This document shows, in pieces, positions 6,191-62,170 of a stretch of DNA of 64,000 nucleotides. The notes below the pieces were generated by a model. It was given only the letters and a program-made list of their open reading frames with translations, did not search any database and was not told where the DNA came from. Source of the DNA: Eledone cirrhosa. Its lineage: Eukaryota. Position 1 is the first letter of the stretch, and every line of letters begins with the position of its first letter. The translations under genes and the position numbers were made by a program. The stretch is from contig OZ024741.1 of the NCBI GenBank assembly GCA_964016885.1, positions 76,322,001 through 76,386,000 on the forward strand, given 5' to 3'.

Positions 6191-6300
6191 ATCTACATAT
6201 CTACCTACACACCTACCTACATATCTACCCACTTACCTACATATCCTCCTTTATACATACTTATCTATCTACCCACCTACCTACACATACACACATACTT
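6191..6300. repeat. Degenerate tail of the 12-bp minisatellite
   Basis: ATCTACATATCTACCTACACACCTACC... resumes right after the endonuclease fragment. Confidence 0.85.
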
Positions 6301-6833: not shown

Positions 6834-6880
6834 AAAGTCCTCAAGATCTAATGGTAAATAACCAATCAGATCGAGATGGG
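6834..6880 (+). CDS. EPS8: EPS8-family exon (xSPQDLMVNNQSDRDG)
   Basis: TAG acceptor, GTGAGT donor, 47 nt ending in phase 0; the DRD motif precedes QLLNH as in EPS8 (DRDVQILNH). Confidence 0.7.
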
Positions 6881-20600: not shown

Positions 20601-20656
<56 letters not shown>

Positions 20657-20724
20657 TATATATATTATATATTATATATATTATATATATTATATATATA
20701 TATATTATATATATTATATATTAT
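20601..20724. repeat. (TA)n microsatellite, left flank of the RTE insertion
   Basis: Pure then TT-interrupted TA repeat. Confidence 0.9.
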
Positions 20725-22166: not shown

Positions 22167-22197
<31 letters not shown>

Positions 22198-23115
22198 AGA
22201 TAAATTCCCGTTCATGTTTATTCACTTTCGCCAAACAATTGCTGCTTCAACTACCCCTACTACGGTGTAACCATGTAATCGTAACGTTCACGTTTTTCCT
22301 ATCTCCTCCACACACCACAATTTCGTACAAACATCCAATCCCGCAAAATCCGAAATCTGTATTTTTTGTTATTTATTAAGGTTTAAATACGGTGTTTTTG
22401 TCGTATTGAACAGAACAAATCTTGCAGTTTTGCTTTTTGTTACTCGCTGGTAAACATTCATAACCTTCCAGCTAGCTAATTCTATCGTATTCTCCAATTC
22501 CTTAAATTCCTTAATTCCATCGTATTCCCAAACAAAAAAAAACAAAATCCTTCCCATTCTTAATTCTATCGTATCCTCCAATTCCCTAATTCTATCGTAT
22601 TCTCAAACAAAAAAACAAAAAACAACAAAATCCTTTCCATTCTACTTCTTATAATTTACTTTAAATATATATATCATGCTACCTCGAAAGTCAAAAATCC
22701 CGCTCATACACCCTTCACCCACCATTTTCTTCACGAGGGGTTGCGGTCAGCCACTCTCTCTCTCTCTCTCTCCCCCTTCCCACTCTCTCTCTCTCTCTCT
22801 TAGCTACACACACACACACACACATATATATATAAGATAAATTCCCGTTCATGTTTATTCACTTTCGCCAAACAATTGCTGCTTCAACTACCCCTACTAC
22901 GGTGTAACCATGTAATCGTAACGTTCACGTTTTTCCTATCTCCTCCACACACCACAATTTCGTACAAACATCCAATCCCGCAAAATCCGAAATCTGTATT
23001 TTTTGTTATTTATTAAGGTTTAAATACGGTGTTTTTGTCGTATTGAACAGAACAAATCTTGCAGTTTTGCTTTTTGTTACTCGCTGGTAAACATTCATAA
23101 CCTTCCAGCTAGCTA
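20725..23115 (+). repeat. Tandem ~640-bp monomers (one 5'-partial + three full copies) at the 5' end of the RTE
   Basis: Unit ends CCAGCTAGCTA at 21197, 21835, 22478 and 23115 (periods 638, 643, 637); copies near-identical. Confidence 0.95.
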
Positions 23116-23282
23116 CCCCACATCCCTCCCACCCGCCCCCACACACCACCATTCTTAATACGTGGACCAATCATAAGCCAGAGACCCCCCCCACACGCAT
23201 CACCATTATTATTATTACGCGGACCAATCATAAGCCAGAGGCCTATACTATCGCTTGCACGGTTGCCTTCGATATATGATGG

Positions 23283-26200
23283 ATGGATGGATGGACGGAC
23301 TGCGGAATCCTGGAGAGTGGAGGGGAGAGAAAAATCTGGACGCTCAGAGCGAAAATGCCAATGCTAAAGTCAAATTCACCTCGTGGACGAGAATGCGGGC
23401 ACTCTTCTTTGTTTCGCCCGCGGATGGCTAACATAACCCCATCTCCCCCCGCCCCACACCACCCCCACCCTCCAAACGCGATCCAAAACTTCAGAGTTGG
23501 TACCATAAATGTAGGCACCCTAAAGGGGCGCGCTAACGAGGTTGTAGAAATGCTTGAACGTAAGGAGGTCGATGTTTGTTGTATTCAAGAGACCAGGTGG
23601 AGGGGTGGGTCTGCTAGATTCATTGAGGGTAAAAAACGATGTTATAAGCTTTTCTGGGTGGGAAACGACGATGGGCTGGGTGGAGTAGGAATCATGGTAG
23701 CAGAAAAGTGGGCGGATAAGATAATAGACGTAAATAGAGTGAACGACAGAATAATTAAAATACGACTTGTCCTCAATAGAACTACGGTGACAGTAATATC
23801 TGCGTATGCACCCCAATCCGGACTGCCCGGCACTATAAAAGACAGATTCTATGAGACACTGATGCTCACTACCTCCCAAATATCTGACAGTGACTATATA
23901 ATTATTGCAGGCGACCTAAATGGTCACGTTGGGCAACATTGTGACGGCTACGACGAAATCCATGGAGGCTATGGGTTTGGTACTAGAAATGAGGAAGGCT
24001 CCAGAATCCTGGAATTCTGTGATGCAAATAACCTAACTATCTGTAACACTAACTTCAAAAAACGTGACAATCACCTGATCACCTATAGATCCGGGGAACA
24101 CACAAGCCAGGTAGATTATATCCTTACCAGAAGACGTGACAGAGTGTCTGTTGTAAACACTAAATCCCTCCCCCATGAAGAATGCACCTCCCAACATAGA
24201 CTGATAATTAGCGACCTCATAGTCAGGTCGAGACGTACTCGACAGCAGAAGAGGACTATCCTCAGGAGAAAAATATGGAAGCTAAAGGACCCCACAGCCA
24301 AAAATAAATTTCAAAACATATTACTTGATGCTTTCGACAGTAAGGAAGAACACTTAGAGTCGGACAATATAGAGGGACAGTGGGAATTTCTGAAAGCAAA
24401 CCTGCTGTTGGCCACAGACGAAGTCTGTGGCTGGAGCAGGCCTGTAGGCAGGAGGAGAGTAACATGGTGGTGGAACAGTAAGGTGGAGGAGTCAATTAAG
24501 GCCAAAAAGCAGGCTTGGAAAGTATGGCGGGATGGGGGAAGTAGAGTAGACTATCAAGTGGCCAGGAGGGAAGCTAGGAGAGAAGTGTACTTAGCAAGAA
24601 GGGAAGCTGAGGAAAGAAAGTTCAAGCATGTCCTACAACGCGATGACCAAAAACGTGAGGTGTTCAGGATTGCTAGGCAATGCGTCAAGGAAAACCGTGA
24701 TATTGTCGGGGAGAAGTGTGTACTTAACGATGATGGCATACTTGCCATCACCGACACTGATAAGAAGGCAGCTTGGAAGTGTCACTATGAAAGGCTACTA
24801 AATGAGGAGAATAAATGGGAGAAAGACAGTCTCCCCCATGTCGACCCAATAGAGGGACCAGCAGTGTTAGTCGAGGGGAGTATAATAAGTAAGGCAATCA
24901 AGGATATGAAGACAGGTAAGGCGGCTGGGCCTTCGGAAATAGTTGCTGAGATGCTGAAGGCATCTGGCACGGTGGGACACACCATGGTCACCCGCATAGT
25001 TAACCAAGTCGTACAGAATGGGGTTGTTCCGAAGGACTGGCATAGCAGCATCATCGTTAACTGTTATAAGGGTAAAGGAGACGCCCTAGATAGGAGTAAC
25101 TATAGAGGCATTAAATTAATCGACCAGGTCATGAAGGTCACAGAAAAAGTAATAGCGCAACTAATCAGAGAGAGAATTGACCTAGATGAAATGCAGTTCG
25201 GGTTTGTGTCAGGCAAAAGTACCACAGACGCTCTTTTCATAGTACGACAACTACAGGAGAAGTACCTAGCTAAAGGTAAACCCCTCTACTTAGCTTTTGT
25301 CGACTTGGAGAAAGCCTTCGACAGAGTCCCCCGCTCCATTATCTGGTGGGCTCTTAGAAAACTAGGCGTTGACGAATGGCTTGTGAGGGCTATACAAGCC
25401 ATGTATAAAGAAACAGTCAGCAAGGTTAGAATTAACAACGAATATAGTGAAGAGTTTAGCGTAAAAGTTGGCGTCCATCAGGGCTCTGTTCTCAGCCCCC
25501 TACTATTTATTATTGCCCTTCAGGCTATAACAGAGGAGTTCAAGACAGGCTGCCCATGGGAACTCCTATACGCAGACGACCTGACACTCATAGCGGAATC
25601 AATGGCCGAGCTAGAGAAGAAATTCCAAACATGGAAGCACGGCCTAGAGTCAAAAGGACTTAAAATTAACCTGGCTAAGACCAAAGTTCTAGTTTGTAGG
25701 AAAGAAAACAAGGCGGCGGTCCCTTCTGGGAAATGGTCGTGCTCGGTGTGTAGGAAAGGCGTAGGTAGAAACTCCATTTTGTGTCCTAAATGCAAAGTAT
25801 GGGTGCATAAAAGATGTAGTGGGATCACAGGTAAGCTAACTAAGAACATAGATTTTACATGTGGCCGGTGTTCTGGTGCAATAAGTAGCAGCAAGTGCCC
25901 ACACAATACTAGCTCTTTCAATTGCGCAGAGGGTTCTATAGAAATAGTGGACAGCTTCCGTTACCTGGGCGATAAAATCAGCAGTGGGGGAGGGTGCTCT
26001 GAAAGTACTGTAGCTAGAGTCAGAACTGGTTGGAAAAAGTTCAGAGAGCTTATACCACTATTAGCTGCTAAAGGGTTCTCCCTAAAAATGAAAGGCAGGT
26101 TGTACGATGCCTGCATACGAACAGCAATGTTGCATGGCAGTGAGACCTGGGCATTGTGTGCAGAGGATATACGCAGACTAGAGAGGAACGAAGCTTGCAT

Positions 26201-26537
26201 GCTCCGCTGGATGTGTAACAGTAATATACGTGAACGGCAAAGCATAAACGAACTAAGGAAAAAATTAGAGATAAGAGGGATCAGATGTTGTTTACTCGAG
26301 AGAAGGCTACGTTGGTATGGACACGTGATGCGCATGAAAGTCGATAGCTGTATAACAAAGTGCAGGGCAATAAAGATAGACGGTAGCCACGGAATAGGCA
26401 GACCTAGAAAAACCTGGGACGAGCTGATAAACTCCGACCTCACACACTTACACCTCTCCAAGACAATGTCACTGGACCGAGACCTTTGGCGGTACTCAGT
26501 AACAGAGAAGACCCGCCTTGCCAGTAGGCATCTCTAA
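23283..26537 (+). CDS. Intact RTE-clade LINE ORF: APE endonuclease, reverse transcriptase, PHD-type zinc finger
   Basis: 1084 aa without stops; GTINVGTL, CIQETRW, SAYAPQ, GDLNGH, VDYIL, SQHR (APE); FVDLEKAFDRV, VHQGSVLSP, YADD (RT); LHGSETW, RRLRWYGHVMR, GRPRKTW (RTE C-terminus). Confidence 0.95.
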   Translation: MDGWTDCGILESGGERKIWTLRAKMPMLKSNSPRGRECGHSSLFRPRMANITPSPPAPHHPHPPNAIQNFRVGTINVGTLKGRANEVVEMLERKEVDVCCIQETRWRGGSARFIEGKKRCYKLFWVGNDDGLGGVGIMVAEKWADKIIDVNRVNDRIIKIRLVLNRTTVTVISAYAPQSGLPGTIKDRFYETLMLTTSQISDSDYIIIAGDLNGHVGQHCDGYDEIHGGYGFGTRNEEGSRILEFCDANNLTICNTNFKKRDNHLITYRSGEHTSQVDYILTRRRDRVSVVNTKSLPHEECTSQHRLIISDLIVRSRRTRQQKRTILRRKIWKLKDPTAKNKFQNILLDAFDSKEEHLESDNIEGQWEFLKANLLLATDEVCGWSRPVGRRRVTWWWNSKVEESIKAKKQAWKVWRDGGSRVDYQVARREARREVYLARREAEERKFKHVLQRDDQKREVFRIARQCVKENRDIVGEKCVLNDDGILAITDTDKKAAWKCHYERLLNEENKWEKDSLPHVDPIEGPAVLVEGSIISKAIKDMKTGKAAGPSEIVAEMLKASGTVGHTMVTRIVNQVVQNGVVPKDWHSSIIVNCYKGKGDALDRSNYRGIKLIDQVMKVTEKVIAQLIRERIDLDEMQFGFVSGKSTTDALFIVRQLQEKYLAKGKPLYLAFVDLEKAFDRVPRSIIWWALRKLGVDEWLVRAIQAMYKETVSKVRINNEYSEEFSVKVGVHQGSVLSPLLFIIALQAITEEFKTGCPWELLYADDLTLIAESMAELEKKFQTWKHGLESKGLKINLAKTKVLVCRKENKAAVPSGKWSCSVCRKGVGRNSILCPKCKVWVHKRCSGITGKLTKNIDFTCGRCSGAISSSKCPHNTSSFNCAEGSIEIVDSFRYLGDKISSGGGCSESTVARVRTGWKKFRELIPLLAAKGFSLKMKGRLYDACIRTAMLHGSETWALCAEDIRRLERNEACMLRWMCNSNIRERQSINELRKKLEIRGIRCCLLERRLRWYGHVMRMKVDSCITKCRAIKIDGSHGIGRPRKTWDELINSDLTHLHLSKTMSLDRDLWRYSVTEKTRLASRHL

Positions 26538-28099: not shown

Positions 28100-29420
28100 T
28101 ATGGAAGGAATATATTAAGTTAACGCTTGAAATAGCAGGAAGAGGGTCTTAACGTTTTGGATGCTAGTCCTTCATCAGAAGAAAGAATGAGAAATAAGAT
28201 AGATTGAAGGGACGGGCGGGATGGAATTGGAAAAAATGTCTTTAGATAAAAATAACAGGTCGATTCATGTTGACATCTCTTGGAAAACTGTTGGTGCTGG
28301 CGTTTTGTGTATGATTTATTTTTTCAGAAAAGTGGATGATGGAGTGCATCTACCTGAAATGGTAAAAAAAAAATGTTTTATAAAAAGAGCTATACTTGTG
28401 CACGTGCGTAAGTGTGTTATTATACGCCCGTACGAAGCTAAGAAGAAATGTGTGAGTAAAAGAGTGTGTGTGCATGTAAGTACGAAGCTATGAGCAAAAG
28501 TATGTTAATATAAGGGTGTGTATGTGTGTATACAGAGCAATGAAGGGAAAAGTGGAATGAGCATATATAGTCGGCATGTATTAGTTGCAAGAAATATGTT
28601 TCTGACCATAAGAGAGCCATAGAAATCTAGGGGTGAATGTACAAGCGCATGTGTGATAAAGGACAGGGTATTAAAGAAATTGGGGGAGGGGGTGAGTTGA
28701 ATCCATGAGGGAAATAGGACCCTAGGCGGTAAATCAGACTGTTCAGTCCTGGTGCGCCAGGCCTGTGATCCGTGATGTAAAAGGACACCCAGGACTCAGA
28801 CATGTAGGGAAGAGTGACCAGGAGAGCGGAAATGACAGGTGACGGGAGTATCCAAACCGAGTCATATGTCCCTCAAATACTCAGCAAAACGGTCCGCCAT
28901 ACGGCGTCCCGTTTGTTCAATGTATAAAGACCCGCAAAGAGAACACCGGAGGGCATAGACAATGTGGGTGGATGTGCAGGTGAAGGAGTGGCGGGCTTGT
29001 GAGGGTGGAAATGAAGGGACAAGTGTTGCAGTGGGGACGAGAACAAGGATGAGAGCCAGGTGGAGTCATAAGAGAGCACAAGAAGGAACTGCGTACCAGG
29101 AGATCGCGGAGGTTACGGGCACACTTACATGTGGTAATGGGTGGGTTTGGAAAAAAGCGAGAAGTGATGGAGTCAGAAGAGAGGGTGTGGAAGGAACGGA
29201 GGATATATCACCAGGGTGGTAGGTGAGAGGGAAAGAAAGACGGGTGTTGGGAGGGCGCTGGTGAGGTGAGAGGGCTGTGGTATGGTCGGTTTCACGGGCA
29301 CGGGTGAGAGCATCTTGGACCAGGGTGGGGGGATATCCACGCTGGATGAAGCGGGAAGCCATGTGAAGGGAATAGGTTTCAAAATCGTTGTCCTGACTAC
29401 AGAGCCAAAGAAGACGGAGG
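28100..29420 (-). mobile_element. Penelope-like element 3' part (GIY-YIG region + terminal repeat with hammerhead relic)
   Basis: Minus strand reads MASRFIQRGYP and IVYALRCSLCGSLYIEQTGRRMADRFAEY; CTGATGAAGGA..TCCAAAACGTT near 28150-28178. Confidence 0.85.
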
Positions 29421-29451
29421 AATAGGGTATGGAGAGTTGCAGCTTGTTAAG

Positions 29452-29612
29452 AAACTTTATTGCATATTACAACTGCTTTGATATTGATCGGCTCAGGTTT
29501 GATCATGTGATCAGATCCAGATTCTGAATCGACACCTCTTCAGATATGTGAGTTTACATGGGTGGTCCCATGCCAATCGATATCGAAGCAGTTGTAATAT
29601 GCAATAAAGTTT
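29452..29612 (-). ncRNA. Type I hammerhead-ribozyme-like element inside a ~41-bp inverted repeat
   Basis: Minus strand: CATAT-CTGAAGA-stem II-(A/G)AAG-CAGTTG-TA-ATATG then AATAAA; stem I is 5 bp perfect; core variants present. Confidence 0.6.
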
Positions 29613-29789
29613 AATTTTTTTTTTTTTTTTTTTTTAATAATATGCCTCATTCTGTTGGACCCTTCTGTTTTAAACTTCTATTTAAGCCAGTCTAGAATTC
29701 TAATTCTCTCTTTTTCTCTCGGTTTTCCATTAATATTTTACATGTTTTTAATAATATGCCTCATTCTGTTGGACCCTTCCTAAAAACTA

Positions 29790-32700
29790 ACCTTCTCCTA
29801 AAGTTACCCATTTCCTGCCCTCCCACCCCCGCTCACCACCATTGCTTTATGGTCCAATCATAACTCAGCGGTTTATAGTAAGTTCTCTTACAAATTAGTA
29901 TAGCAAAGCTACCACCTCGGTTATTACTCCTTAAGTTTAGGCCTAGTTGATTTTCGGTTTGCTAGGTGGACTGCGGAATTTGGAAAGTCTGAACACTCAA
30001 TGACAATGACACAGATAAAGATAAATTCACCTCCTGCTGCAGGACGAGAATGCAAGGACCCCTCTTTATTTCAGACACAGATGACCCCTCTAACCCATCA
30101 ATCCCACCCTCCCAACTTCAGAATTGGTACCATGAACGTAGGCACATTGAAAGGTCGCTCAAATGAGGTTGTAGAGATGCTTGAACATAAAGAAGTTGAT
30201 GTTTGTTGTGTTCAAGAGACTAGGTGGAGAGGTGGATCTGCTAGATTCATCGTGGGTAAAAAATGATGCTATTAACTTTTCTGGGTGGGAAATGATAACG
30301 GACTGGGTGGTGTAGGAATTATGTTAGCTGAAAAATGGGTAGATAAGGTAATTGATGTAAATAGAGTGAATGACAGAATAATTAAAATAAGACTAGTTCT
30401 AAATAGAACTACTGTGACAATAATATCCGCTTATGCACCCCAATCTGGTCTGCCTGACGTTAGAAAGGACAGGTTCTATGAGTCGCTGATGCACACTACC
30501 TCTCAAATAACCGACAGCGACTACTTAATTATTGCTGGTGACCTAAACGGTCACGTTGGACAACATAGTGATGGCTATGATGGAATCCATGGAGGCTATG
30601 GGTTTGGAAATAGAAATGAGGAAGGTTTCAGAATCCTAGAATTCTGTGACACAAATAACCTAACTATCTGTAACTCAAACTTCAAAAAACAAGAAAACCA
30701 CTTGATCACCTATAGATCAGGGGAACACGCCAGTCAGATAGATTATATCCTTACTAGAAAACGTGACAAAGTGTCTGTTGTAAACACTAAATCCTCCCCG
30801 TGAAGAAGGCACCTCCCAACATAGCCTAGTAGCTAGTGACCTCATAGTCAGGAATAGACGTACTCGACAACAGAGGAGGACTACCTTGGTTGAAGGACCC
30901 CATAGCCAGTGACAAATTTAAAAGCTTATTACTTGATGCCTTTGACAATAAGGAAGAGCAATTAGAGACGTGCAATATAGAGGAACAGTGGGAATTCTTG
31001 AAAGTGAACCTGCTGAAAGCAACGGATGAAATCTGTGGCTGGAGCAGACCTATTGGCAGGAGGAGAGTAACTTGGTGGTGGGGACAATGAAGGCCATAAA
31101 GCAGGCTTGGAAAGTATGGCAAGAGGGAGAAGTAGAGAACACTATCAAGTGGCCAGGAGAGAAGCTAGGAGACAAGTGTACCTTGCAAAAAGGGAAGCAG
31201 AGGATAGAAAGTTCAAGCATGTTCTACAACGTGAGGTGTTCAGGATTGCTATACAATGTGTCATGGGAAACCGTGATATTGTCAGGGAGAAGTGTGTCCG
31301 TGATGATAATGGTGTACTTGCCCTCACAGATACTGATGAGAAGGTAGCTTGGAAGTGTCACTACAAGAGATTATTAATTGAGGAGAATAAATGGCAAAAA
31401 GATAGTCTGCCCCAAATCGATCCAATAGAAGGACCAGCGGTGCAAGTTAAAGGTAGTAAGTAAGGTAATCAAAGATATGAAGACAGGCAAGGCAGCTGGG
31501 CCTTTGGAGATAGTTGCTGAGATGTTGAAGGCATCTGGAATGGTGGGACATACTATGGTCACCCGTATAGTAAACCAAGTAATACAGAATGGGGTCATAC
31601 CAAAAGACTGGCGTAGCAGCATCATCATTAACTGCTACAAGGGTAAAGGGGATGCTCTAGATAGGGGAAACTATAGAGGCATTAAGTTAGTTGACCAGGT
31701 CATGAAGGTCACAGAAAGAGTTATAGCGCAACTAGTCAGAGAGCAAATTGATCTAGATGAAATGCAGTTTGGGTTTGTGTCTGGTAAAAGTACCACTGAC
31801 GCTATTTTCCTTGTATGACAACTACAGGAGAAGTACCTAGCTAAAAGTAAACCCCTCTACTTAGCTTTTGTAGACCTGGAGAAAGCCTTTGACAGAGTGC
31901 CCCACTCCATTATCTCGTGGGCTCTTAGAAAACTAGGTGTAGATGAATGGCTTGTGAGAGCTATATAAGCCATGTATAAAGAAACAATCAGTAAGGTTAG
32001 AATTAACAATGAATATAGTGAAGAATTTATTTTAAAAGTTGGTGTTCATCAACACTCTGTCCTTAGCCCCCTTTTATTTATTATTGCCCTTCAGGCTATA
32101 ACAGAGAAGTTTAAGACCAGCTGCCCATGGGAACTCCTATATGCAGATGATCTAACTCTCATAGCTGAATCTATGGCTGAACTAGAGAAGAAATTCCAAA
32201 CATGGAAGCATGGCCTAAAATCAAAAGGCCTTAAAGTTAACTTGTCTAAGACTAAAGTTCTAGTTTGTAGAAAGGAAAATAGGGCACAGGAAATGGCCAT
32301 GCTCAGTGTGTAGGAAAGGAGTAGGTAGAAATTCCATTTTATGTCCCAAATGCAAACTATGGGTACATAAAAGATGTAGTGGGACCACAGGTAAACTATC
32401 TGAGAACGTAGATTTTATATGTGGCCGATGCTCAGGTGCAATAAGTAGCAAGTGCCCACAGAATAACAGCTCCTTCTATTGCCCAGATGGTTCTATAGAA
32501 ATAGTGGACACTTTCCGTTACCTGGGTGACAAAATCAGCAGTGGTGGAGGGTGCTCTGAAAGTACAGTAGCCAGAGTCAGAACGGGATGGAAAAAGTTCA
32601 GAGAGCTTATACCGCTGTTGGCTGCAAAAGGTTTCTCTCTAAAATTGAAAAGCAGATTGTATGATGCATGTATACAAACAACAATGCTACATGGCAGTGA

Positions 32701-33416
32701 GACATGGGCATTGTGTGCAGAGGACCTGCACAGACTGGAAAGGGATGAAGCATGCATGCTCTGTTGGATGTGTAATAATAATATACGTGAACGGCAAAGC
32801 ATAAATGAACTGAGAAATTAGGAATAAGAGGGATCAGATGCTGTTTACTTGAGAGATGTATGGTCACGTGATGCGCATGAAAGATGACAGCTGTATAAAA
32901 AAGTGCAGGGCGATCAAAATTGATAGAAGTTACGGAGTAGGTAGACCCAGAAAAACTTGGGACGATTTGATAAATTCCGACCTTACACAATTGCACCTCT
33001 CTAAGACAATGTCACTGGACTGAGATCTTTGGCGCTACGCAGTAATACAGAATACCCACCTTGCCTATGTACAAAGCGAAGCCTACAGTCAGTAGGCACC
33101 TCTTAACCAAATATACACCCCAATCCACTACCCCTACTCTATCCTCCCACCAACACCACCCTCTCTCTGTAAAGTTGGTACCACAACATTCAGTCCAAAT
33201 AAATGAGATAATGAGATTGAGATTGTGTATGTGTCACGACAAAAAAACACACAGTCCATGCTGTAATGCGGCCGTGTAGGTAACACGGTAAAAAATTCCC
33301 AGTCCACACTGTAAATGTGGTTGGTGTTAGGAAGGGCATCCAGCCGTAGAAAACTTGCCAGATAATCTTATATGAGCAAGACACAGTCACCCGACCAACC
33401 TTGCCTCAAGTGGGAC
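29790..33416 (+). mobile_element. Near full-length decayed RTE copy (same family as 23283-26537)
   Basis: ORF pieces 30000-32821 are colinear with the intact ORF, with stops and frameshifts; PHD finger retained. Confidence 0.93.
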
Positions 33417-33583
33417 TTATATTGATTATATGTAGTCTAGTAGTTGTCTTGTTTTTGTTTTATTCACCCTCCCCCATCTGCACCCTCCAATGGAACAAGG
33501 GAAAAATTGGTTTCTACATACACACATATCGAACAATGAAACTTAAATTTTTTTTTAATGACATGTTAATTTGTTCCTTGTAG

Positions 33584-33659
33584 AATTTGTGAAGTAACAC
33601 ATTCACGAGATAAGAAAAATGCCAAGGAACTAACTGTAGTAAAAGGAGAAATTCTTGAA
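33584..33659 (+). CDS. EPS8: EPS8-family exon, SH3 N-half (ICEVTHSRDKKNAKELTVVKGEILE)
   Basis: TAG/GTAAGT boundaries; ELTVxKGEILE SH3 motif. Confidence 0.9.
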
Positions 33660-33780
33660 GTAAGTATTAATATAGATCTGTTTGTATATCTGGTTAATTA
33701 ACCCTTTTGTGACCATATTTCCAATGAAATGCAGTCTATTTCAATTAATTAATGAAAAATTTTGTGAGATTTACTAACAT

Positions 33781-33958
33781 GGATTGGCAGTATCGGTAGA
33801 GGGTCGGACGCCATGCTTTGACGCATAGTTACGGCCCTTTCCAATCTGAGTTCAAATCCCGACAAGGTTAACTTTGCCTTTCATCCTTACGGGGTCGATA
33901 AAATAAAGTACCAGTAATGCACTGAGTAATTGCTGGCCTTGTGCCAAAAGTAGAAACA
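33781..33958 (+). mobile_element. tRNA-derived SINE family 2 copy
   Basis: Matches 39289-39466 and 43816-44003. Confidence 0.85.
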
Positions 33959-34766
33959 ATTATTATAACCAGCTTATTATATGAAATCACCCATTTTAAA
34001 GGGTTCCTATTTAAATTAAAACCTTCCAACAACAGAACCTTTTGTTATACACCATTATAATTATGAAATAATTAGTAATTTTAGTAAATCTCCTCAAATT
34101 TTTAATTAATCTTTTTAATACCAACTCATCTGAGACCACATTGTTTTATAATATACAACCGCTCATTTTGAAATGATCATACCTATATTAAAATCATCCA
34201 TCATAATTTTATTTAAGAAAGTTTTGTTATCTAATGTTTCAAACATCATTTTACTAATGAAAAGGTTAGTTACCTCATTAAATTTTCCAAGTTTTTTAAA
34301 ACTAGTTAATGCACATGTTAAATAGTAACCCTTTAAAATAGGTAGTTTTGTTTTATATAATCATTTGGTTTCGGCCTAGTTAGTATCAAATTGGTAAACT
34401 GTTAATTAGGTTTCATAAGGAATAATCATCATCATCATCATTTTTATATCTGTTTTTCCATTCTTGCATGGATTAGATGAGTCTTCTCTAGTACAGCATC
34501 TAGAATTTCTTCTCTGAGTCTTTTATAAATTTTGCTATCCGGTCTAGGTTATCAGCATACAAGAGTTTCCATGGACAACTCATCTTAAATGGCTTTGTTA
34601 TAGCCTGACTTGCTAACAACACACATTTTAACACCATTTTCCCTACTAAAGTGGAAGTTATCTTGTAGAGCTCATATCATGGAAGAGTATTTAAAGAATG
34701 TTGTGCTAGCAAAGGGAATATTACATGCTAAAACAGTTAAAATATTGCATTTCTTCTTTATATTAG

Positions 34767-34880
34767 ATTTTAGATGACAACCGAAACTGGTGGAAACTGA
34801 AGAACTGCAAAGGACAAACTGGACATGCTCCATATACCATTTTAAAGCAACATTCATCACTGAACACCATTGATAATGGA
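34767..34880 (+). CDS. EPS8: EPS8-family exon, SH3 C-half (ILDDNRNWWKLKNCKGQTGHAPYTILKQHSSLNTIDNG)
   Basis: TAG/GTGAGT boundaries; ILDD..WWK..N..G.G..P..IL is characteristic of the EPS8 SH3. Confidence 0.93.
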
Positions 34881-35981
34881 GTGAGTGCCTTCAATTACTA
34901 AATTCTTGCAGATTATTGCTTGTCTTCTGTAGCATTTGCAAAATTATCAAAATTATTACAATTATTTGTATTATAATTTTTTCTTATATATATATTTTTA
35001 AATATCTTCCATATATATATATGAAATATAATGTAAATGATTTTATATATATATAATATAAATTATATTATTTTTATTATTATTTCTATATTTTCTATAT
35101 TTTCCTTGTTATTCCACCCTCATAGACATTTGGCAGAATCAGTGAATTGTTGAGCAAAATATGCCTTGCATTATTTCATCACAGCTTATCTTTTAATGTT
35201 CTTTTCAGAGTCAACTTTACTTTTCATCCTTTAACTTTTTTGTTACTATATTTTGAGTGAAAGACACTGCCTATGATTTTCAAATAGTTTTGAAAATAAA
35301 TAACAATTTGGAGGGATTTAGTAATATAACTCTCATTATTAAGCTGGTATGAGGAGCATAACTTAAAGATTTTTACATCAAATTATGATGGAAAGTTTTT
35401 AGATAAATATAAACTTTAAAATAAACATCTTCGTAAACAAAATTGGATAACTTACAAAGCATTAAGAAATTTGAATTTTGGAAGACATAGTTGTCACAAT
35501 GCAGATAACTATAATAATATTTGAATAAAACTCTATCCACTTTTTCCATCTCCAAAGGTACTTTACCTGATTTATTCAACTATTATTATAGTTATCTGCA
35601 TTGTGACAACTATATTTTCAAAACATCCTTGTATTGTAGAACCAAAGGCAGTTTGTTATCAAAAGGGTTAAGGGTTGATACATTATATACCATTCATATG
35701 CTTGATTGATATAATTGCCTTTGCCCATTCTTAAGATGGTTGGCATTGGGGCCAGTATTAGAAATTATTCTTTTACATGTTAAAGATATGGACCAATGGA
35801 ATACTGAATTGAATGTGTTTTTTCCTTGTCCTATATGCAAACAGATCTGTGTGGTTAAGGAGTTCTTTTCAGAAATACATGGTTTCAGGTTCAATTCCAC
35901 TGTGCCTTGGGTCGACCAATCCCTTGTGAGTGAAATTTGACAGAAGTAAATTGTACAGAAGCCTGTCATATATATATATAT

Positions 35982-36541
35982 ATATCAACTAGAAATTGAT
36001 TGACATATATATATATTTAAAATAAACACATGAAACAATCACAGGGGATAATTTGTAAAGAGTAATCACACATAGCTAGGTATTTAATTTAATTTATTTC
36101 GGATATATAAACGGCTTCTTAATTGTAGAGCTAATTTGGTTGAAAGGACTCGGCTGCTATTTATAGCTGTCGACCACCCTATTCGTGCCAATGGGAGGAC
36201 GCTAGCATGGTGTTAGTAGTTTTAGAATTGCAACACGTGCGACGGGTCACTCACAGATTTGTATTTGATGTGTAAACACAGATAGTTATTTCTTCCCCCT
36301 TGCTGAAGATCCAAGATTTAACTACTGTGACTTTACGGATAATTGGTGAAATATATTTCTTTAATGAAATATATACAAGGAGGATTAATCGTTTTTTAAA
36401 AGGTAATATTTGAAGCTCTAGTTAAACTTTAATTAGTTACTACCTAGCTATGTGTGATTACACACTTTACAAATTATCCCTTGTGATTGTTTCATGTGTT
36501 TATTTTAAATATATATATGTCAATCAATTTCTAGTTGATAT
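35982..36541. repeat. Long inverted repeat (~100-bp arms 35982-36082 / 36441-36541)
   Basis: Arms are near-perfect reverse complements, flanked by (TA)n. Confidence 0.88.
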
Positions 36542-39288
36542 AAAATGCTCAGATCTATTCATTGGAATCTTTGAGCTTATTCTACAGTGGATATGGTGCA
36601 TGTCTCGGACATGACTCCCTTAATTTAATTTAATTAAATTTATTTCGGATATATATATATATATATATAGTGTGTGTCTATTTATATCCTGTAACATTAT
36701 CATTTCTACAAACAGAGATCGATAAAATATGCATCATACTTTTCAAAAAATAAGTACAGGGATTGACTAAACAAGCAGACAAATAACATTTATCCAGATT
36801 TGTACAGAGTTTGCTAGTTTTTCTAGTAACAATGTGGTGATGTTCCTGCCATTAAATCTCTTTGTATGACATTGGGGCTTGTCTGGATTAGCCCCAAGAG
36901 TCTTATCTCTTGCCATGAGTGAGCAATAGGATGTGAAATTTGAACTCAAAATTCAAGTAACTGGAAGAGATATTGCAAGGCATCTCGCCCTGATGGTCTA
37001 ATGATTTTGCCAGTCAACCACTCTTGACTTGTACTTTATTTATTTATCAGCTTCCAGAAGAATAAAATGCAAAGTTGACCTTGAAGGGATTTCAACTCTG
37101 AGAACTGGAACAAATACTTCCAGGCATTCTAACCATTAATTCTGCCTTAGTGTGCTGAACAGTATTTTGTTTCATTTTAATTTTTTTTTATACCAACCTG
37201 TCCAAAATTGCTTCTGGTTCTATGAAAACAATCCACCCATTTTAATCTTCAGCACACTAGAAATGTTTATGATTGCTTCCCTTGACACTGCATTATGTAT
37301 TAAGGGGCCGATTACTCTATCGGCGACTTAATGCACCTGAAGGTTAAATGATTTCCTTCTTAATGTCTTCCAATATAATTTGACACAAGAACCTTTTAAG
37401 TTATATCACAAATACCATCTTGATAACAAAATCATTTATTATTTTAGTAATTTCCATCCAAATTCTTCATTACTTAATTAAAATACAGTAATTTCAATAA
37501 AAGTATCATCACAAAAAGTCAAGTTCAAGGCCTTCCTGGGTTGACTGTCTCTTTGATTTCTCCAAGGGTTTAATAAAAAAAAATTAATAAATAAATAAAT
37601 ACGACATGAACTGGGGTTGATTCAACTGAACTTCTTTGAAACCTTTGCCCTAGGAAAATGTCTGGCTTAAAACCTGTCTATGAGAGAATCATTATTTTCA
37701 TTTTTCTTTGTTTGGTTTTTGCTGTTGTTGTTGTTTTTTTTTTTTGTTTTTATTGTTTTTTTTTGTTTTTTTTATAATTTGTATTTTGGCAATTTTAGTT
37801 TTATAGAAGACAAAATAAATAAAAATTACAACTGCAAAATATTTTCAGTTGTATATTTTGTATCTATTTTTTTTTTTTTTCTTCTTATATGCCCTGAATG
37901 ATAGAGTATATATAAAATTTGATACCCCTGAGTTGCTATATTTATGAATAATCTTATATGCCCTAGTGGATGAGTAGTTAAGAAGTTCATTTCACAACCA
38001 TAAGATCCCAGGTTTGATCCAATTGCATGGCAACTTGAGTACAATTTTTAAAATAGTAAGCAATTGTACCCATACTTGTATATAAAAAAGTCCATTAACT
38101 CTTAACTTCCTGTACCTCATGAAACCACATTAGCAAGCCATTCTTAAGTACAAAACAGCACTATGATTGCATCACATATACAATTAAAGTATTTGCTCTA
38201 ATACTACAAATTTTCACAATGATTTGTTCACCAGTAAAAATACTGTAATCATTTGAGTCAATAGACCCATTGAAAAAAATATTATCTGTTAAATCTTTAC
38301 AGGATATTAAGAGTTAATTGATAATGCTACCTCCTCATGCACTTTACAAAACACCAGATGAATGTTGCCTCGTGATTCCAGCAGACAAAATTATAAGGGC
38401 ATAACCCCAGAGAATAATGGAGATACTCTGAAAGAGCCATCAGGCTCATTTTGATGGATTACCTGCCATCTCTGTCTCAATTGCTGTATATAGGGAAGTG
38501 GTTAGAGGACCCAGTACACCAAATGGTTCCACTGTTTTCAGTTCAATAATAAACTTATCAGAGAGCAGCCAGTAATTTCACTGTTTGAAATCTTCAGCTT
38601 ATCAGGCAATTGAGCTTGACCCTGAAGCTGAATTTACTAGGGCTAAACCTTCCTTGTGAGTAAAATTGGGTAGATGGAAATTGTGTAGAAGCCCATCAGA
38701 TGGACTGTAGCTGTTAATCAAAGGTCCAGCCTTGTCATATACTCGCTTACATCATGATACAATAAGTGGGTAGTTCTGTTGATCAAACAACTGGAATACA
38801 CATTGTTGTTATTGATGTAGGATCCATTTATATATCCTAGAGATTAATTCTAATTAAGTATATTTTACATAAATGTACAGCATTTAGAATGCCTGAAATA
38901 TTCTAAACATGTCTAATATTTATAAATAGCTGTGTGGTTATGGAGCAGGCTTCACAACCATACAATTTCAAGTTCAATCCCATTGCATGGCAAGTGTCTT
39001 CTACTATAGCCTCAGGTTGACCAATACTTTGTGAGTAAAATTTGGTAAAAGGAAACTGTGCAGAAGCCTGTTGTGTGTGAGTGTTTATGTCCCATAACTT
39101 ATCAGTTTGACAAAAGGTGTACCAGTTTTTTAAAAATAAATATTAAAGTTGATATCTTTGACTGAATATCTTTATTGTTGTGCCTTAGCATGGCTTCAGT
39201 CAAATGACTTAAACCAGTAAAACAATATAAGAATATACATATATGAGAGTTTCTGTACATTTGTATTTTGTGAGTATTATTTCTGTTT

Positions 39289-39466
39289 GGATTGGCAGTA
39301 TCGGTAGAGGGTGGGACGCCATGCTTTCCAGCATAGTTACGTCCCTTTACGATCTGAGTTCAAATCCCGCTGAGGTTGACTTTGCCTTTCATCCTTACGG
39401 GGTCGATAAAATAAAGTACCAGTAATGCACTGGGTAATTGCTGGCCTTGTGCCTAAAGTAGAAACA
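39289..39466 (+). mobile_element. SINE family 2 copy with 13-bp TSD
   Basis: TSD ATTATTTCTGTTT at 39276-39288 and 39467-39479; B box GAGTTCAAATCC; central GCCTTTCATCCTTACGGGGTCGATAAAAT. Confidence 0.9.
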
Positions 39467-40109
39467 ATTATTTCTGTTTATATCTATCATTATATAATCT
39501 CCATTTTCCTTGCTGTGAAAGCATAATGATCAGTTTGTGTGTGCTCACTTTATTCGTATGTTTTGTATATGTGGTATCCTTATGCATGTTTATCTGCACA
39601 TCTGTAGGTATATATGTACCATCATCATCACGATCTTTACATTCACCTTCCCATGCTCTTATCACTTCTGTACAGGTTTTCTTCAGCCTATTTCTATCAC
39701 ATCTAACACATCTTCACCTAATAATCAGATGTCTGTACAAATGCAATCTTCTCTCTTGCACACTACATCTGATTCTTCTATTTCTAATAATTATTCCCTT
39801 TATTGTTTGTCCTTGTTCTATGATGTTAGTTTTTTCATTGCACTAATGTATTAATGTGACACTCTCTTGTATATTAACCTCATTTCAAGTTCTTTTTGCT
39901 CATTGTTATTCTTTCTCTGAATGTGGCTATGACAGTCATTAGAATGGTGGATAGAATGATTTGTTGTTTTGTTCCAGCTCTGTGTATTTTGAGTTCAAAT
40001 CCTGGTTAACTTTGCATTTTGTACTTTAGAGGTTGATAAAGTACCAGTTCAGTACTGTGGTTGATTATTCTATATCTCTTTCTCACTTCTCTTTCTTTCC
40101 ATTTTCAAG

Positions 40110-40255
40110 CTATATCAGCTAGGTCCTTGATAAACTAATTTACTTCATGACTTATCAGTTAGGTCTTTGATAAATCACTTTACTTCACCACATATCAGTT
40201 AGGTCCTCAATAAATCACTTTACTTCTCGACATATCAGCTAGGTCTTTGATAAAC
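40110..40255. repeat. ~40-bp tandem repeat (about 3.5 copies)
   Basis: ATATCAG(C/T)TAGGTC(C/T)TTGATAAATCACTTTACTTC... repeated. Confidence 0.8.
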
Positions 40256-40945
40256 CTATTGAGTAGGAATTGTTGGAGGGAATTGATATGGCAGTAATGA
40301 CAATTTTCAGCATTTGACACAAAATCCAACATATAAATATGGAAGATTTGGCAAAGTCACTTAATGGTAAAAGCTTCCTGCTTGCATAAAACCATCACTC
40401 ATTAACCATATCTTGCAGCCATAAATAAAAATAGTGTGAGTGAATGTTTGATAGCTGCAGATTTTTGTGAATAGCTAGATATGCTTTATTTCACATTGCT
40501 TTTCATGATAGGATTGAGTCTCCTATCATTAAAACACTCAAGAAACCTCCTTTGAGATAAAAATATCATTGGAGGCCAGCTAAACCTACATAGGTGTGAG
40601 CTTTATATTTAATTTTTCATTACAGTGGATATAAACTTAAACCCATTAACTTGGATATATGTATCTATACATCTTCATATACAGATATATGTATTCAATA
40701 TATTTATGTAAATATGTGTGTATATAAAGTAGGTATCTATGTATCATACTCACAAAAATACATTCTCACTACACACACACATATATACATATATATACAT
40801 GTGTGTGTATGTGTGTAAATATATAGTCAAAGATATTTCATGTGCCAATGTGAAAGACACTCAACATGAAGAATATATATAGGGATTGTAACATCCAGTT
40901 ACTATAGGTTCACCAGAGTGAGCACTCGATGCTCCTGTAAGTATA

Positions 40946-41042
40946 GAGGTCTGACGAGCTTTTGATTCCAGAGTCTGGCTAGATCGATACAGATCGAACT
41001 TTGAGCTAATCGATAGTGAAATGCGCATCACTACTCAATAAA
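40946..41042 (+). ncRNA. Hammerhead-ribozyme-like element
   Basis: CTGACGA-GCTTTTGATT...AATCGATAGT-GAAA-TGCGCA-TC followed by AATAAA; core intact, stem I weak. Confidence 0.55.
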
Positions 41043-41306
41043 CATAACGAAGTCACAATAAATCATCCTTCTTATTATTTTATATATATATATATATATA
41101 TACACACACATACATACATACATACATACACATAAGTTTAAGTACAAACAAAAGAAAAGCACAATCAACACAATATGGAAGTTGTAAATATTTATATAAA
41201 CAGTTTGATTTTTGTTTTTTTGGCATCACCAAAGAGTTTTGTGGTGTAAATAAGAGCAACTCTTTCAGTAGCAATAAAAGAAAAATATTGTCAAATTGTT
41301 TATATA

Positions 41307-41345
<39 letters not shown>

Positions 41346-41584
41346 TGGCTGCCAACTCGTTTTCGAGTACGGCCACTACTTTATATCCATGTAGGAGAAC
41401 CCCTACCGATGCGCTGAACGAGTGTGACTTTTTAGTCCAGCCAATTATTGACACATAAAAACAAAACCTGTCAAAGGGCAAAGGAGCTCTTAAGAGTCAA
41501 TGGCCATCCAAAATCACTGGGAGAGATGACCTCTTAGCCTTTGTCAAGGCAGAATTCTAGGAGAAGGAAAACTCTGATAGATAT

Positions 41585-41635
<51 letters not shown>

Positions 41636-42531
41636 TACATTTAATAATAGAATGCTTGTTCAATCATTGCTTTTATTAGTTTCCAAAACCCTAAAACTGG
41701 TTGAGTACTCAGTCAGACACCGACTGACACCACATCACGTGCCCTTTTTCAACAAAGATCTCTTGAAATCAAAAGTAAACGTGATTGAAGAGGATGAGTA
41801 TGTGTCGTGTGGAGAGCTTGTAGGCATTGCTGGGTGGTTAAGATGTTTGCTTTGCTATCTCATGATTCTCTGTTCATTCCCATATGCGTCTTCTATTACA
41901 TAGTATATATATACCACAGCTGTCATTTGCAATCGAGTATGACTTGGCAGTATGAACCATGCTTTTGCTAAGGGTAATGGGTGCTTGTGTAGTTGTGTGC
42001 AGACACCTCATGACTTTCCCTTACTTCATCCAGTGGAACATCCAGGATGTGACAGCTGAAGAGAGAGAAGGCTGCATCAGTAATGGGCTGGTACTTCCTT
42101 TATCAACTATGAAAGGATGAAAGACAAAATGTAGGATTTGAACTCAGAAGGCAAAGAGCTAGAAAAAAATCCAACACTCTAATGACTCTACCAAATCAGC
42201 TAACCATATGTATGCGTGTGCATGTGTGATTATGTATTAATACAACATTGCTAGTTGAAACAAAACTGGTTTTGAGTTCAAAATAGTAACGTAATCGTGA
42301 CTAATCCTTAATGTCAGTATCCCATCATGACTGTAGTTAGATAAGAAAGCACACTATGTATATACACACATATTCATCCATACATGTATATATGTATATA
42401 CACACATATTCATCCATACATGTATATATGTGTCATCATTTTATATCCACCTTCCAGGCTAGCCTGAATTGTGAAGGTCCAAGACCAGATAGTTCAAGGG
42501 GATCTGTCTTTTGTATATAAATGTGTGTGTG

Positions 42532-42897
42532 TTAGAAAATATAGGAATCCCAAATAAAAAAATAACTAACAACAGCCGATTGCTATAAACAATAGCTGGC
42601 AAAATAACCCTAAAGAGATAAAAAGAGTGGTTAGCTGGTTACGGAGAATCGAACTCCATATCCCTCGAGTTCTGGCTGTGTGCCATACCATTATACTTAA
42701 AGAGCTGCTGACATTTAGCTTAATGGTAAAGCACTTGGCTAGAATTTGAGGGATACAGAGTTTTATTCTTCATAACAGTGGCTGGCTACCCTTTTTCCAT
42801 CTCTTGGGGTATTACATCCAATTTCCTAAGTTATTATTTATAGCAATCAACTGTTGTTAAAGTTATTTCCTGCATTTGGGATTCCTACATTCTCTAA
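42532..42897. repeat. Foldback element made of two divergent tRNA-like heads
   Basis: Imperfect inverted arms; inner parts carry A/B-box-like sequences pointing outward. Confidence 0.7.
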
Positions 42898-42981
42898 AAT
42901 TTTAAGTCACCCAGCATTTTGATTGTTTGTAAAAAAAGTTTGCACAGTCATATATATATGTGTGTGTGTTTTGTTGAATTG

Positions 42982-43086
42982 CCAGTCTGATGAGCAGATT
43001 GATACTGGAGTCGGGTCCATAACTTCTGTGGGTGACCTTGAGCCAATCCTCTGCAAAACGTGCTTAACAGATTGATACGCAATAAA
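42982..43086 (+). ncRNA. Degenerate hammerhead-ribozyme-like element
   Basis: CTGATGA-GCAGA...TCTGC-AAAAC (GAAA mutated), then AATAAA. Confidence 0.45.
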
Positions 43087-43129
43087 AACCTAAATGCATG
43101 TAAACGAAACTACATTGCTTTTCTTTATA

Positions 43130-43333: not shown

Positions 43334-43815
43334 CTTAAAAATATTAATAAATATAGACATTCATGTGATCAAATATATTTTATTATACATAATTCAGAGG
43401 TACTGAGCTATTTCATCAGTATGTCCTCATCAGATAAAATAAATTGATGTCTGACATACCTTGACTGTGCTGATGGTTCAAATCCAGTCTTGGATATATA
43501 TATATTTAATATTTATACTCTGCTATATATTTAGTTCCTTACTTACTGAGGTTACCCCCGATTGAACTCGGGATACACGCATACACTCAAACATTTTGTT
43601 TACTACCCCTCTTTTATTGTTGGCAAATGTACTTTATAACATCATCACAAGACTTTGTATTGGCTTTGTTTTGGGAATTTGAGTTTTGATTTATATGTTA
43701 TCAGTTATATGTTTATTTTGTTTATGACATGTGTATATTGTGTGTGTTTATCTTAGCATTGTATCAGGATATGAATGTTGCTAACACTCTATCAGAGGCT
43801 CATTATGTATTTACA

Positions 43816-50347: not shown

Positions 50348-50615
50348 TATTAATTCAAAATATTAACAAAAATAGACATTCGTGTGATCAAGTATATTTT
50401 ATTATACATATTTCAGAGGTACTGAGCTATCTTCAACAATACATCCTCATCAGATAAAATAAGATGATATCTACTTAGTCAGGGTATGTCATGCATCATC
50501 TTATTTTATCTGATGAGGACGTACTGTTGAAGATAGCTCAGTACCTCTGAAATATGTATAATAAAATATACTTGATCACACGAATGTCTATTTTTGTTAA
50601 TATTTTGAATTAATA
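50348..50615. repeat. Near-perfect palindrome (~121-bp arms, 26-nt spacer)
   Basis: 50348-50468 is the reverse complement of 50495-50615; a single-arm relative lies at ~43335-43445. Confidence 0.92.
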
Positions 50616-61864: not shown

Positions 61865-62170
61865 GGTGAGGTTAACAACAGGTTAACAATGACATACTGT
61901 GGTTAACAACCACATACTGATGTTAACAACCACATACTTTGGTTAACAACCATAAACTGTGGTTAAAAAACCACATACTGTGGTTAACAACCACATACTG
62001 TGGTTAACAACAACATACTGAGGTTAACAACTGAAAACTGAGGCTAACAACTACATAACGAGGTTAACAACTGAATACTGAGGTTAATAACAGAATACTG
62101 AGGTTAACAACAACATGCTGAAGTTTACAACCACATACTGAGGTTAACAACAGAATACTGAGGTTAACAA
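61865..62170. repeat. 20-bp minisatellite (ACTGAGGTTAACAACCACAT)n
   Basis: About 15 tandem variant copies. Confidence 0.9.

What the first reader, a model, noticed from the sequence alone, without database searches (positions are those of the whole stretch)
29452..43086. Three dispersed hammerhead-like mini-elements share a conserved extended stem II domain
Seen: elements at 29548-29456 (-), 40946-41042 (+) and 42982-43086 (+) all read CTGANGA-[stem II]-(G/A)AA-[short palindromic stem III]-UH...AATAAA. Their stem II sequences differ but each pairs (GGTGTCGATT/AATCGATATC when rebuilt from the right arm, GCTTTTGATT/AATCGATAGT, GCAGA/TCTGC). All enclose a similar asymmetric loop: CAGAATCTGG / CCAGAGTCTGG / CTGGAGTCGGG on the 5' side and ACCTGAGCC / ACTTTGAGCT / ACCTTGAGCC on the 3' side, around a variable inner hairpin. 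Known: Penelope-like elements and retrozymes carry minimal type I hammerheads with palindromic stem III that work as dimers, usually with short stem II loops. Inference: a family of non-autonomous ribozyme-bearing retroelements with an extra conserved RNA module (tertiary contact or protein-binding site) that I do not recognise as described.
Basis: partly seen in the sequence, partly recalled or inferred. Interest (0 to 1): 0.72.

Follow-up and report, generated by a model that had tools for sequence, protein, structure and literature searches.

The report
Long-armed hammerheads keep invariant RNA loop
These three repeats are worn-down tail ends of related jumping genes whose self-cutting-RNA fold carries an unusually long arm with one small, unchanging internal loop, likely a protein-binding site, and that loop has been kept even in lineages whose cutting centre has mutated in ways predicted to slow or stop cutting.

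Summary
Confirmed, but reinterpreted. The three elements belong to three different high-copy families (815, 2,844 and 2,478 first-look candidates). Longer copies run upstream through a 1-2 kb UTR into Hydra-clade Penelope-like (PLE) RT/GIY-YIG genes, so these are 5'-truncated ends of autonomous PLEs, not a shown non-autonomous family. Each ends in a type I hammerhead fold with palindromic stem III and a 57-62 nt stem II (published Hydra hammerheads: at most about 26 nt). The shared module is real: 5'-GAGUC/GAGC-3' forms a G-C pair, an AG/G 2x1 loop and U-A, C-G pairs, 12 bp from the core, with covarying flanks; it is invariant while the endonucleases are about 45% identical. New here: 1,746 of 3,573 module-bearing matches have a changed core (U4C, or U4C+A6U), including full-length copies. 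The module probably binds protein; cleavage is untested. The scan has noted long-armed Hydra hammerheads in this genome before, with other loops.

The parts
29433..29576 (-). Family A copy: 5'-truncated 3' end (pLTR part) of a Hydra-clade PLE
   Evidence: BLAST to long copies L175 and L181 covers -32 to +114 around the core; long copies reach a Hydra-type GIY-YIG
29462..29549 (-). A hammerhead fold: stem I 29549-29544 with 29467-29462, core 29543-29537, stem II 29536-29480, damaged GAAA 29479-29476, predicted cut after 29468
   Evidence: (72 bits, but the copy was in the training set)
29491..29525 (-). A module: 5' strand 29525-29517 (decayed), 3' strand 29497-29491
29572..29612 (+). Inverted partial copy of the family A 3' half at the 5' junction, the usual PLE inversion
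   Evidence: (reverse self-hit)
40881..40933 (-). Inverted piece of the family B 3' tail, joined in front of the B copy
   Evidence: matches the tail of a long relative at 89% over 35 nt, 40931-40897; opposite-strand hits of query 1-71
40945..41075 (+). Family B copy with hammerhead fold: stem I 40945-40950 with 41030-41035, core 40951-40957, stem II 40958-41017, GAAA 41018-41021, predicted cut after 41029
40970..41006 (+). B module: 5' strand 40970-40978, 3' strand 41000-41006
42969..43129 (+). Family C copy with hammerhead fold: core 42987-42993, stem II 42994-43054, damaged GAAA 43055-43058, predicted cut after 43066
   Evidence: C ends lie 1.3-2.3 kb behind Hydra-type endonucleases in L231, L233, L238
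43007..43043 (+). C module: 5' strand 43007-43015, 3' strand 43037-43043; the only window copy predicted to form it
   Evidence: pair probabilities 0.61-0.90

Best explanation
The three elements are decayed, 5'-truncated 3' ends of three related Hydra-clade Penelope-like retrotransposons, and their hammerhead fold carries a long stem II with an invariant AG/G internal loop that likely serves as a protein-binding handle on the element's RNA rather than as part of the cutting centre. Shown: family membership, linkage to RT/GIY-YIG genes, the paired structure by covariation, invariance of the nine module bases, and core changes in two lineages. Inferred: reverse transcription starts about 50 or 160 nt downstream of the cut site on uncut RNA and usually stops early, which leaves short copies; lineages with a canonical core would cut slowly as dimers through the palindromic stem III; the module is held by a protein, most likely the element's own RT-endonuclease, which selects or folds this RNA end; lineages with U4C or U4C+A6U would cut poorly or not at all yet still spread.
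For: Linkage: A runs into a GIY-YIG in L175, with the UTR shared by L178 and L179; the B lineage ends full-length pLTR-ORF-pLTR units L124 and L129; C follows Hydra-type endonucleases on the same strand in 3 of 17 loci fetched and stands as inverted 5' copy in 3 of 17 (5 of 17 hold C in all). Structure: 85.7% of 741 cells paired against 76.0% shuffled and 29-37% when slid; the two pairs below the loop covary (C-G 11/U-A 7; A-U 19/G-C 6), the pair above varies G-U 13/A-U 9/G-C 4, while G-C (28 of 29) and U-A (29 of 29) around the loop do not vary; RNAalifold finds the same register unprompted. Selection: module columns agree in 107 of 108 lineage cells; A, B and C are 100% identical there, 15-44% in the inner hairpin; endonucleases are 44-45% (A to B lineage) and 29-46% (A to C) identical and the UTRs share only an embedded repeat and microsatellite stretches. 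The 3' strand spacing from module to GAAA is 11 nt in all 29 rows. Core drift: 1,018 CCGU and 728 CCGA among 3,573 matches. In a tested hammerhead, changes in the CUGA region other than the C3-G8 swap gave low activity (PMC9901934, passages); A6C gave low activity (PMC3088659 section 8). In a Poseidon PLE, cutting needed the protein and was not needed for insertion (PMC11167929 section 3). Copies end at +119 to +130 or +217 to +236 from the core, beyond the cut site, which requires uncut template.
Against: No binding, cleavage or expression data. Invariant pairs give no covariation signal. The count of pairs changed on both sides is not far above the shuffle (14 against 11.2, 17 of 500). The U4C+A6U lineage has also broken one flanking pair, and the module register is predicted in only 9 of 11 non-window copies folded, not in that lineage (G-C pair 0.12) or lineage I. 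In the Poseidon PLE the minimal template starts past most of stem II, so there the protein site is not stem II. Other Hydra families in this genome and in print lack the module, so it is not needed by the clade as a whole.
Confidence: 0.58

Rival explanations
1. The module is a long-range tertiary contact that docks on stem I or its 3' flank and speeds or rescues cutting, perhaps making up for the changed core.
For: Natural hammerheads use stem I-stem II contacts (PMC3088659 passages). The loop sits at a fixed distance from the core. AAUAAA or AAUUAAA follows stem I in every lineage and could be a partner.
Against: Stem I varies freely in sequence and length across lineages (mean 7-8 of 12) while the module does not; AAUAAA lies 0-6 nt from the sixth pair of stem I depending on family and reads as a poly(A) signal. 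The loop is 12 bp from the core, farther than the loop 2 of a 4-bp canonical stem II. An eLife scan found no second-site rescue inside the CUGA region.
Confidence: 0.2
2. The conserved bases act as DNA, as part of the internal promoter of the pLTR, and the hairpin is incidental.
For: In full-length L129 the upstream pLTR puts the core 278 nt before the start codon; PLE pLTRs hold promoters (PMC6765202 passages). Conservation is at the sequence level. A and B hold a Pol III B-box-like 9-mer next to the 3' strand (consensus recalled).
Against: Compensatory changes flank the loop on both sides, which DNA recognition does not explain; the B-box-like word is absent from C, F, H and I.
Confidence: 0.1
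3. The short copies come from separate non-autonomous masters (SINE- or retrozyme-like) derived from the PLE ends.
For: 5' ends cluster just upstream of stem I: 22 of 29 A copies end at -27 to -38 and 20 of 34 C matches at -18 to -34. Non-LTR retrozymes are described as non-autonomous PLE derivatives (bioRxiv 10.64898/2026.07.22.740005, abstract to methods).
Against: The ends are spread over 10-15 nt, not fixed; a continuum of longer copies exists (11 of 33 pattern hits reach -148 to -1502); copies are single or inverted, I saw no head-to-tail arrays of short units in the loci read; the sets were selected by similarity to the short window copies.
Confidence: 0.12
4. The module is shared only by descent and has no function.
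For: A, the B lineage and C form one clade apart from 4 other Hydra rows (UFBoot 99, midpoint root, 24 partial rows); selection of lineages was biased.
Against: Nine of nine bases are unchanged while adjacent hairpin, stems I and III and the UTR have turned over and the protein is about 45% identical.
Confidence: 0.07

Closest known systems
Hydra clade of C-terminal EN+ Penelope-like elements and their hammerheads (Craig et al. 2021, PMC8557442; section 11, passages, File S1 rows, File S2 table, part of File S7 read)
   Same: RW(K/R) and DKT motifs, CxCX5C linker, CxxC and CxH around the endonuclease E and N, (TA)n targets, inverted 5' copies, tail, 3' type I hammerhead with short palindromic stem III
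   Different: Stem II spans 57-62 nt with internal loops against 3-7 bp plus a 3-10 nt loop in the 26 Hydra rows of File S2; 3' UTR of 0.9-2.3 kb and a unit near 4.9 kb against 'generally under 3 kb'; cores CCGACGA and CCGUCGA are not in File S2
Minimal PLE hammerheads (Cervera and de la Pena 2014, PMC4209133; parts 1-2 of 4 read)
   Same: Type I, in pLTRs, mostly as single truncated motifs, palindromic helix III, predicted dimers, many sequence families per genome, G10.1-C11.1
   Different: Helix II there is 6-8 bp; no internal loop module; no extra unpaired base after A9 in these families; the core variant reported there is U3-A8
Poseidon PLE of Anolis, protein-assisted hammerhead (Frangieh et al. 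2024, PMC11167929; section 3 read)
   Same: Two 3' end points separated by a tail, downstream of the cut site; insertion from uncut RNA
   Different: Short stem II overlapping the start codon; different clade; protein site mapped downstream of stem II
Bulged-G (sarcin-ricin, loop E) motif, 5'-AGUA/GAA-3' (recalled; one paper search found nothing)
   Same: A, G, U on one strand facing A and a purine on the other; an asymmetric purine loop next to a U-A pair
   Different: Here AGUC/GAG: a Watson-Crick C-G stands where the sheared A-G would be; resemblance only, not tested
Non-LTR retrozymes
   Same: Small, high-copy, type I hammerhead, PLE-related
   Different: Retrozymes are tandem, protein-free units; these are dispersed or inverted ends of coding elements

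Membership tests
Hydra-clade PLE | Single ORF with RT and C-terminal GIY-YIG | tested here: met
   L121, L124, L129; GIY-YIG weak Pfam hit E 0.0056, below cut-off; for A and C only the thumb, linker and endonuclease parts were found
Hydra-clade PLE | RWK and DKT motifs in RT | tested here: met
   RWR and DKT in L124; B lineage only, not seen for A or C
Hydra-clade PLE | CxCX5C linker, no CCHH, CxxC and CxH around E and N | tested here: met
   A (L175), B lineage (L129), C (L233, L238) translations
Hydra-clade PLE | Insertion into (TA)n, inverted 5' copies, tail | tested here: met
Hydra-clade PLE | Length generally under 3 kb | tested here: not met
   L129 unit 2223-7165; described as a tendency, the excess is UTR
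Hydra-clade PLE | Placement in an RT tree with published Hydra proteins | not tested
   Compared by eye with the published Hydra-1_Obim protein; tree holds only this genome's rows
Type I hammerhead ribozyme | Three stems around the core, open stem I | tested here: met
   Stem I 79.8% paired with 5 of 6 pairs changed on both sides; stem III 83.9%
Type I hammerhead ribozyme | Core CUGANGA / GAAA / NUH | tested here: inconclusive
   Met at family level in A, C, F, G; not met in B (U4C) and its sister lineage (U4C+A6U); G12 lost in window copies A and C
Type I hammerhead ribozyme | Self-cleavage | not testable with these tools
   No assay; no raw RNA reads
Dimeric PLE hammerhead | Short palindromic stem III | tested here: met
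   Three different 8-nt palindromes in A/F, G and B/C rows; dimer formation itself not tested
Non-LTR retrozyme / non-autonomous element | No coding part; tandem units with fixed ends | tested here: not met
   Continuous with coding PLEs; variable 5' ends
Kink-turn | C-stem, 3-nt bulge, tandem G-A/A-G, paired NC stem | tested here: not met
   In that register only two C-stem pairs hold (24 and 26 of 29), the third 5 of 29, and the NC pairs 2 of 29 and 0 of 22; definition recalled
Retained spliceosomal intron of PLEs | GT-AG ends with precisely spliced copies | tested here: inconclusive
   Invariant GU and AG would bound 33-35 nt; 0 of 7 arm-less matches have the spliced junction; PLE introns are usually retained, so not decisive

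The most novel reading that the evidence does not exclude
In this Hydra subclade the hammerhead has turned from a ribozyme into a protein-binding scaffold: an invariant AG/G loop on a long stem II is the recognition site of the telomerase-like RT-endonuclease, and the best-preserved lineage sampled transposed over a thousand times with a catalytically dead core.
Probability: 0.3. Interest if true: 0.72.

Novelty: new variant of a known kind. Interest (0 to 1): 0.47.

Why it matters
The role of hammerheads in PLEs is stated as unclear (PMC8557442). Here one clade offers a natural series, canonical, U4C and U4C+A6U cores on the same scaffold, all amplified in the genome, plus a nine-base motif that outlasted the core. 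That makes two questions directly testable: whether cutting matters for transposition in vivo, and what RNA feature a telomerase-related RT recognises. It also shows that Rfam models and short-loop descriptors miss thousands of such folds.

Tried and rejected
Rfam: no hammerhead match. Naiad origin: considered because of (TA)n targets and the 'half core' note in PMC8557442; rejected, the linked ORFs have a C-terminal Hydra-type endonuclease. The PLE fragment next to A (29446-28100, minus) is not A's parent: it has a CCHH-type endonuclease and its own short hammerhead at 28178. ORFs near B in L047 and near C in L083 are separate insertions. K-turn register rejected. Micro-intron: 43 copies with shortened arms show scattered deletions (a pattern that could not match the spliced form); the corrected pattern gave 0 of 7 spliced junctions. 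tRNA D-arm or Pol III box origin: order and spacing do not fit (consensus recalled). Outside this genome: 0 matches in viral contigs; 57 in metagenomes, none with both flanking stems like these families, highest 7 of 9 base pairs, so the range across animals is unknown. Six module words searched in the Craig supplement (held text is cut) gave no hammerhead-context hit among the places shown. Sequencing runs: no RNA holder listed. Protein search with the RT gave 2 unnamed hits. The covariance model could be run only on the window and on 29 fetched loci, not on the whole genome. Lunse et al. 2017 on PLE hammerhead variants could not be read; it, and the supplements of PMC4209133, may hold long-stem or core variants that bear on novelty. 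Searches for a description of the module; none listed one, and PMC13282606 has no mention of hammerhead or ribozyme in its main text.
Full report
Observation. The three elements are present as described. The window lies in a 3.0 Gb animal genome, G000; its AT-rich, (TA)n-laden make-up looks like a cephalopod's (my inference, untested). In the window alone the evidence is thin: the loose core pattern gives 41 matches against 25.9 expected, and only C folds better than shuffles. DNA searches of the genome gave 815, 2,844 and 2,478 first-look candidates for A, B and C, 40 scored each. A pattern of the two module strands plus CGAAAC has 2,476 exact matches and 0 in the reversed control. The window copies are relics. 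A and C have lost G12 at a CpG, A also A15.1; B has lost the 15.2-16.2 pair. Copies differ from their family majority by 6-9% outside CpG sites.

What the elements are. Inverted pairs among the pattern hits led to long copies. In L121, L124 and L129 a sister lineage of B (called E here) follows an RT-GIY-YIG ORF after about 2.1 kb of UTR. L129 and L124 are full units: pLTR with hammerhead and tail, start codon 278 nt behind the core, ORF, UTR, hammerhead; they align over 5,068 nt at 91%. Walking upstream from A reached a GIY-YIG in L175, about 0.9 kb before the hammerhead, with the UTR shared by L178 and L179. For C, of 17 loci fetched around a linker-like query, 3 have a C hammerhead 1.3-2.3 kb behind the endonuclease on the same strand and 3 have an inverted C copy on the 5' side; 5 of 17 hold C in all and 12 hold none within the stretch fetched. 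The proteins show the Hydra marks listed in PMC8557442 section 11: RWR, DKT, CxCX5C, CxxC, CxH. An earlier scan note had named the Hydra clade for another long-armed family before I found these ORFs. The first 53 nt of window element B are an inverted piece of the family's tail, and A carries an inverted 3' half; both are standard PLE junctions. So the 'mini-elements' are truncated ends. Their 5' ends do cluster just upstream of stem I (22 of 29 A copies at -27 to -38), which I cannot explain; a short non-autonomous master is possible but not shown.

Structure. From 180 distinct copies extracted from the loci held then I aligned 26 representatives of 12 lineages (plus one intermediate row) and the 3 window copies, 29 rows. 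Fold: stem I of 6 bp or more; core; about 9 bp (IIa) ending in GAU/AUC; a 1-3 nt bulge on the 5' side; 3 bp (IIb) closed by G-C; the AG/G loop; U-A and C-G; usually a one-pyrimidine bulge; RGG/CCY; a free inner hairpin; GAAA; an 8-nt palindrome as stem III; NUH; AAUAAA. In this register 85.7% of 741 cells pair (shuffled 76.0%, slid 29-37%); 14 of 26 pairs change on both sides, which 17 of 500 shuffles reach. The two IIb pairs below the loop switch between C-G/U-A and A-U/G-C. RNAalifold returned the same stem II register, with near-zero total energy and no stem I or III. A k-turn register fails. Folding stem II alone, 9 of 11 non-window copies form the module with pair probabilities of 0.6 or more; E and I do not; of the window copies only C does. 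Stem II spans 57-62 nt; the 26 Hydra rows of Craig's File S2 have 3-7 bp and 3-10 nt loops.

Selection on the module. The nine module columns agree in 107 of 108 lineage cells, against 10 of 12 at core positions 4 and 6 and 7-8 of 12 in stems I and III (each lineage rests on 1-3 copies). Between A, B and C the module is 100% identical and the inner hairpin 15-44%. The endonucleases are 44-45% (A-E) and 29-46% (A-C) identical, and the UTRs share only an embedded repeat and microsatellites. A tree of 24 partial linker-endonuclease rows separates A, E and C from four other Hydra rows (UFBoot 99, midpoint root; rows under 40% coverage and identical rows dropped), so the module looks like a trait of one subclade. 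Caveat: 8 of the 12 lineages came from patterns that required the module.

Core drift. Of 3,573 matches with a relaxed core, 1,018 read CCGU and 728 CCGA; exact patterns favour young copies. Family B has C at position 4 in 25 of 34 copies and T in 8, like its other CpG sites, so the window's CUGA is probably deamination. E, with U4C and A6U, has the least CpG decay (7% against 13-22%) and includes the full-length units; five E copies are 87-95% identical over their last 440 nt, so it is not brand new. G8, G12 and the palindrome are kept. Published mutagenesis predicts low activity for changes in the CUGA region, though not measured on this scaffold.

Mechanism. Copies end about 50 or 160 nt past the cut site, so the template was uncut or tandem RNA, as found in vitro for a Poseidon PLE whose hammerhead cut only with protein and was dispensable for insertion. 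A motif that stays fixed while the core erodes, at a fixed helical distance from it, is best read as a protein site; I put the element's RT-endonuclease first and a host RNA-binding protein second. A tertiary contact, a DNA promoter and mere descent are weaker. The loop resembles a bulged-G motif with a C-G in place of the sheared pair (recalled, untested).

Novelty. The parent elements and PLE hammerheads are known. I found no description of this arm or loop in seven paper searches, but could not read Lunse et al. 2017. The scan has reported long-armed Hydra hammerheads in this genome several times; this loop and the core drift were not in the notes I saw. Verdict: a real feature, new variant of a known kind, interest 0.47.

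Noticed in passing
window 43364-43445 (-), 50383-50465 (-), 50498-50580 (+): A fourth hammerhead family with canonical core, a stem II of about 30 nt, palindromic stem III and no GAGUC/GAGC module; the two copies at 50.4-50.6 kb form an inverted pair.
   Followed up: partly
window 28100-29446 (-): Decayed, 5'-truncated PLE of another clade (CxxCxxxxCxxC-type linker, CCHH-type GIY-YIG) with a short-stem hammerhead at 28178; family A copy is joined directly to its 5' end.
   Followed up: partly
window 23280-26537 (+); 29904-33076 (+): An RTE-like LINE with an open frame of 1,085 aa (APE endonuclease and RT by eye) and a decayed second copy 6.5 kb downstream.
   Followed up: no
window 20609-23105: Four near-identical tandem units of about 640 nt just upstream of the intact LINE.
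   Followed up: no
families A and C, 5' ends: Truncation hot zone 20-38 nt upstream of the core; in A a 5-bp hairpin lies at this point. Could be an RT stop or a transcription start within the pLTR.
   Followed up: partly
L175:4850-4960, L181:4457-4634, L180:4006-4184, L176:4770-4962: The same SINE-like segment is embedded in the 3' UTRs of long A and long C copies, and a Tx1-like LINE tail precedes it in L177 and L180; the UTRs appear to have grown by capturing other repeats.
   Followed up: partly
L251, L262, L268 (metagenome contigs): A GC-rich, probably prokaryotic hammerhead-like family whose long stem II can form the same G-C, AG/G, UC/GA arrangement; found by a pattern that demanded those letters, so no evidence by itself.
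   Followed up: no
window 61865-62205 and 61375-61685: Tandem arrays with 20-nt and 17-nt units.
   Followed up: no
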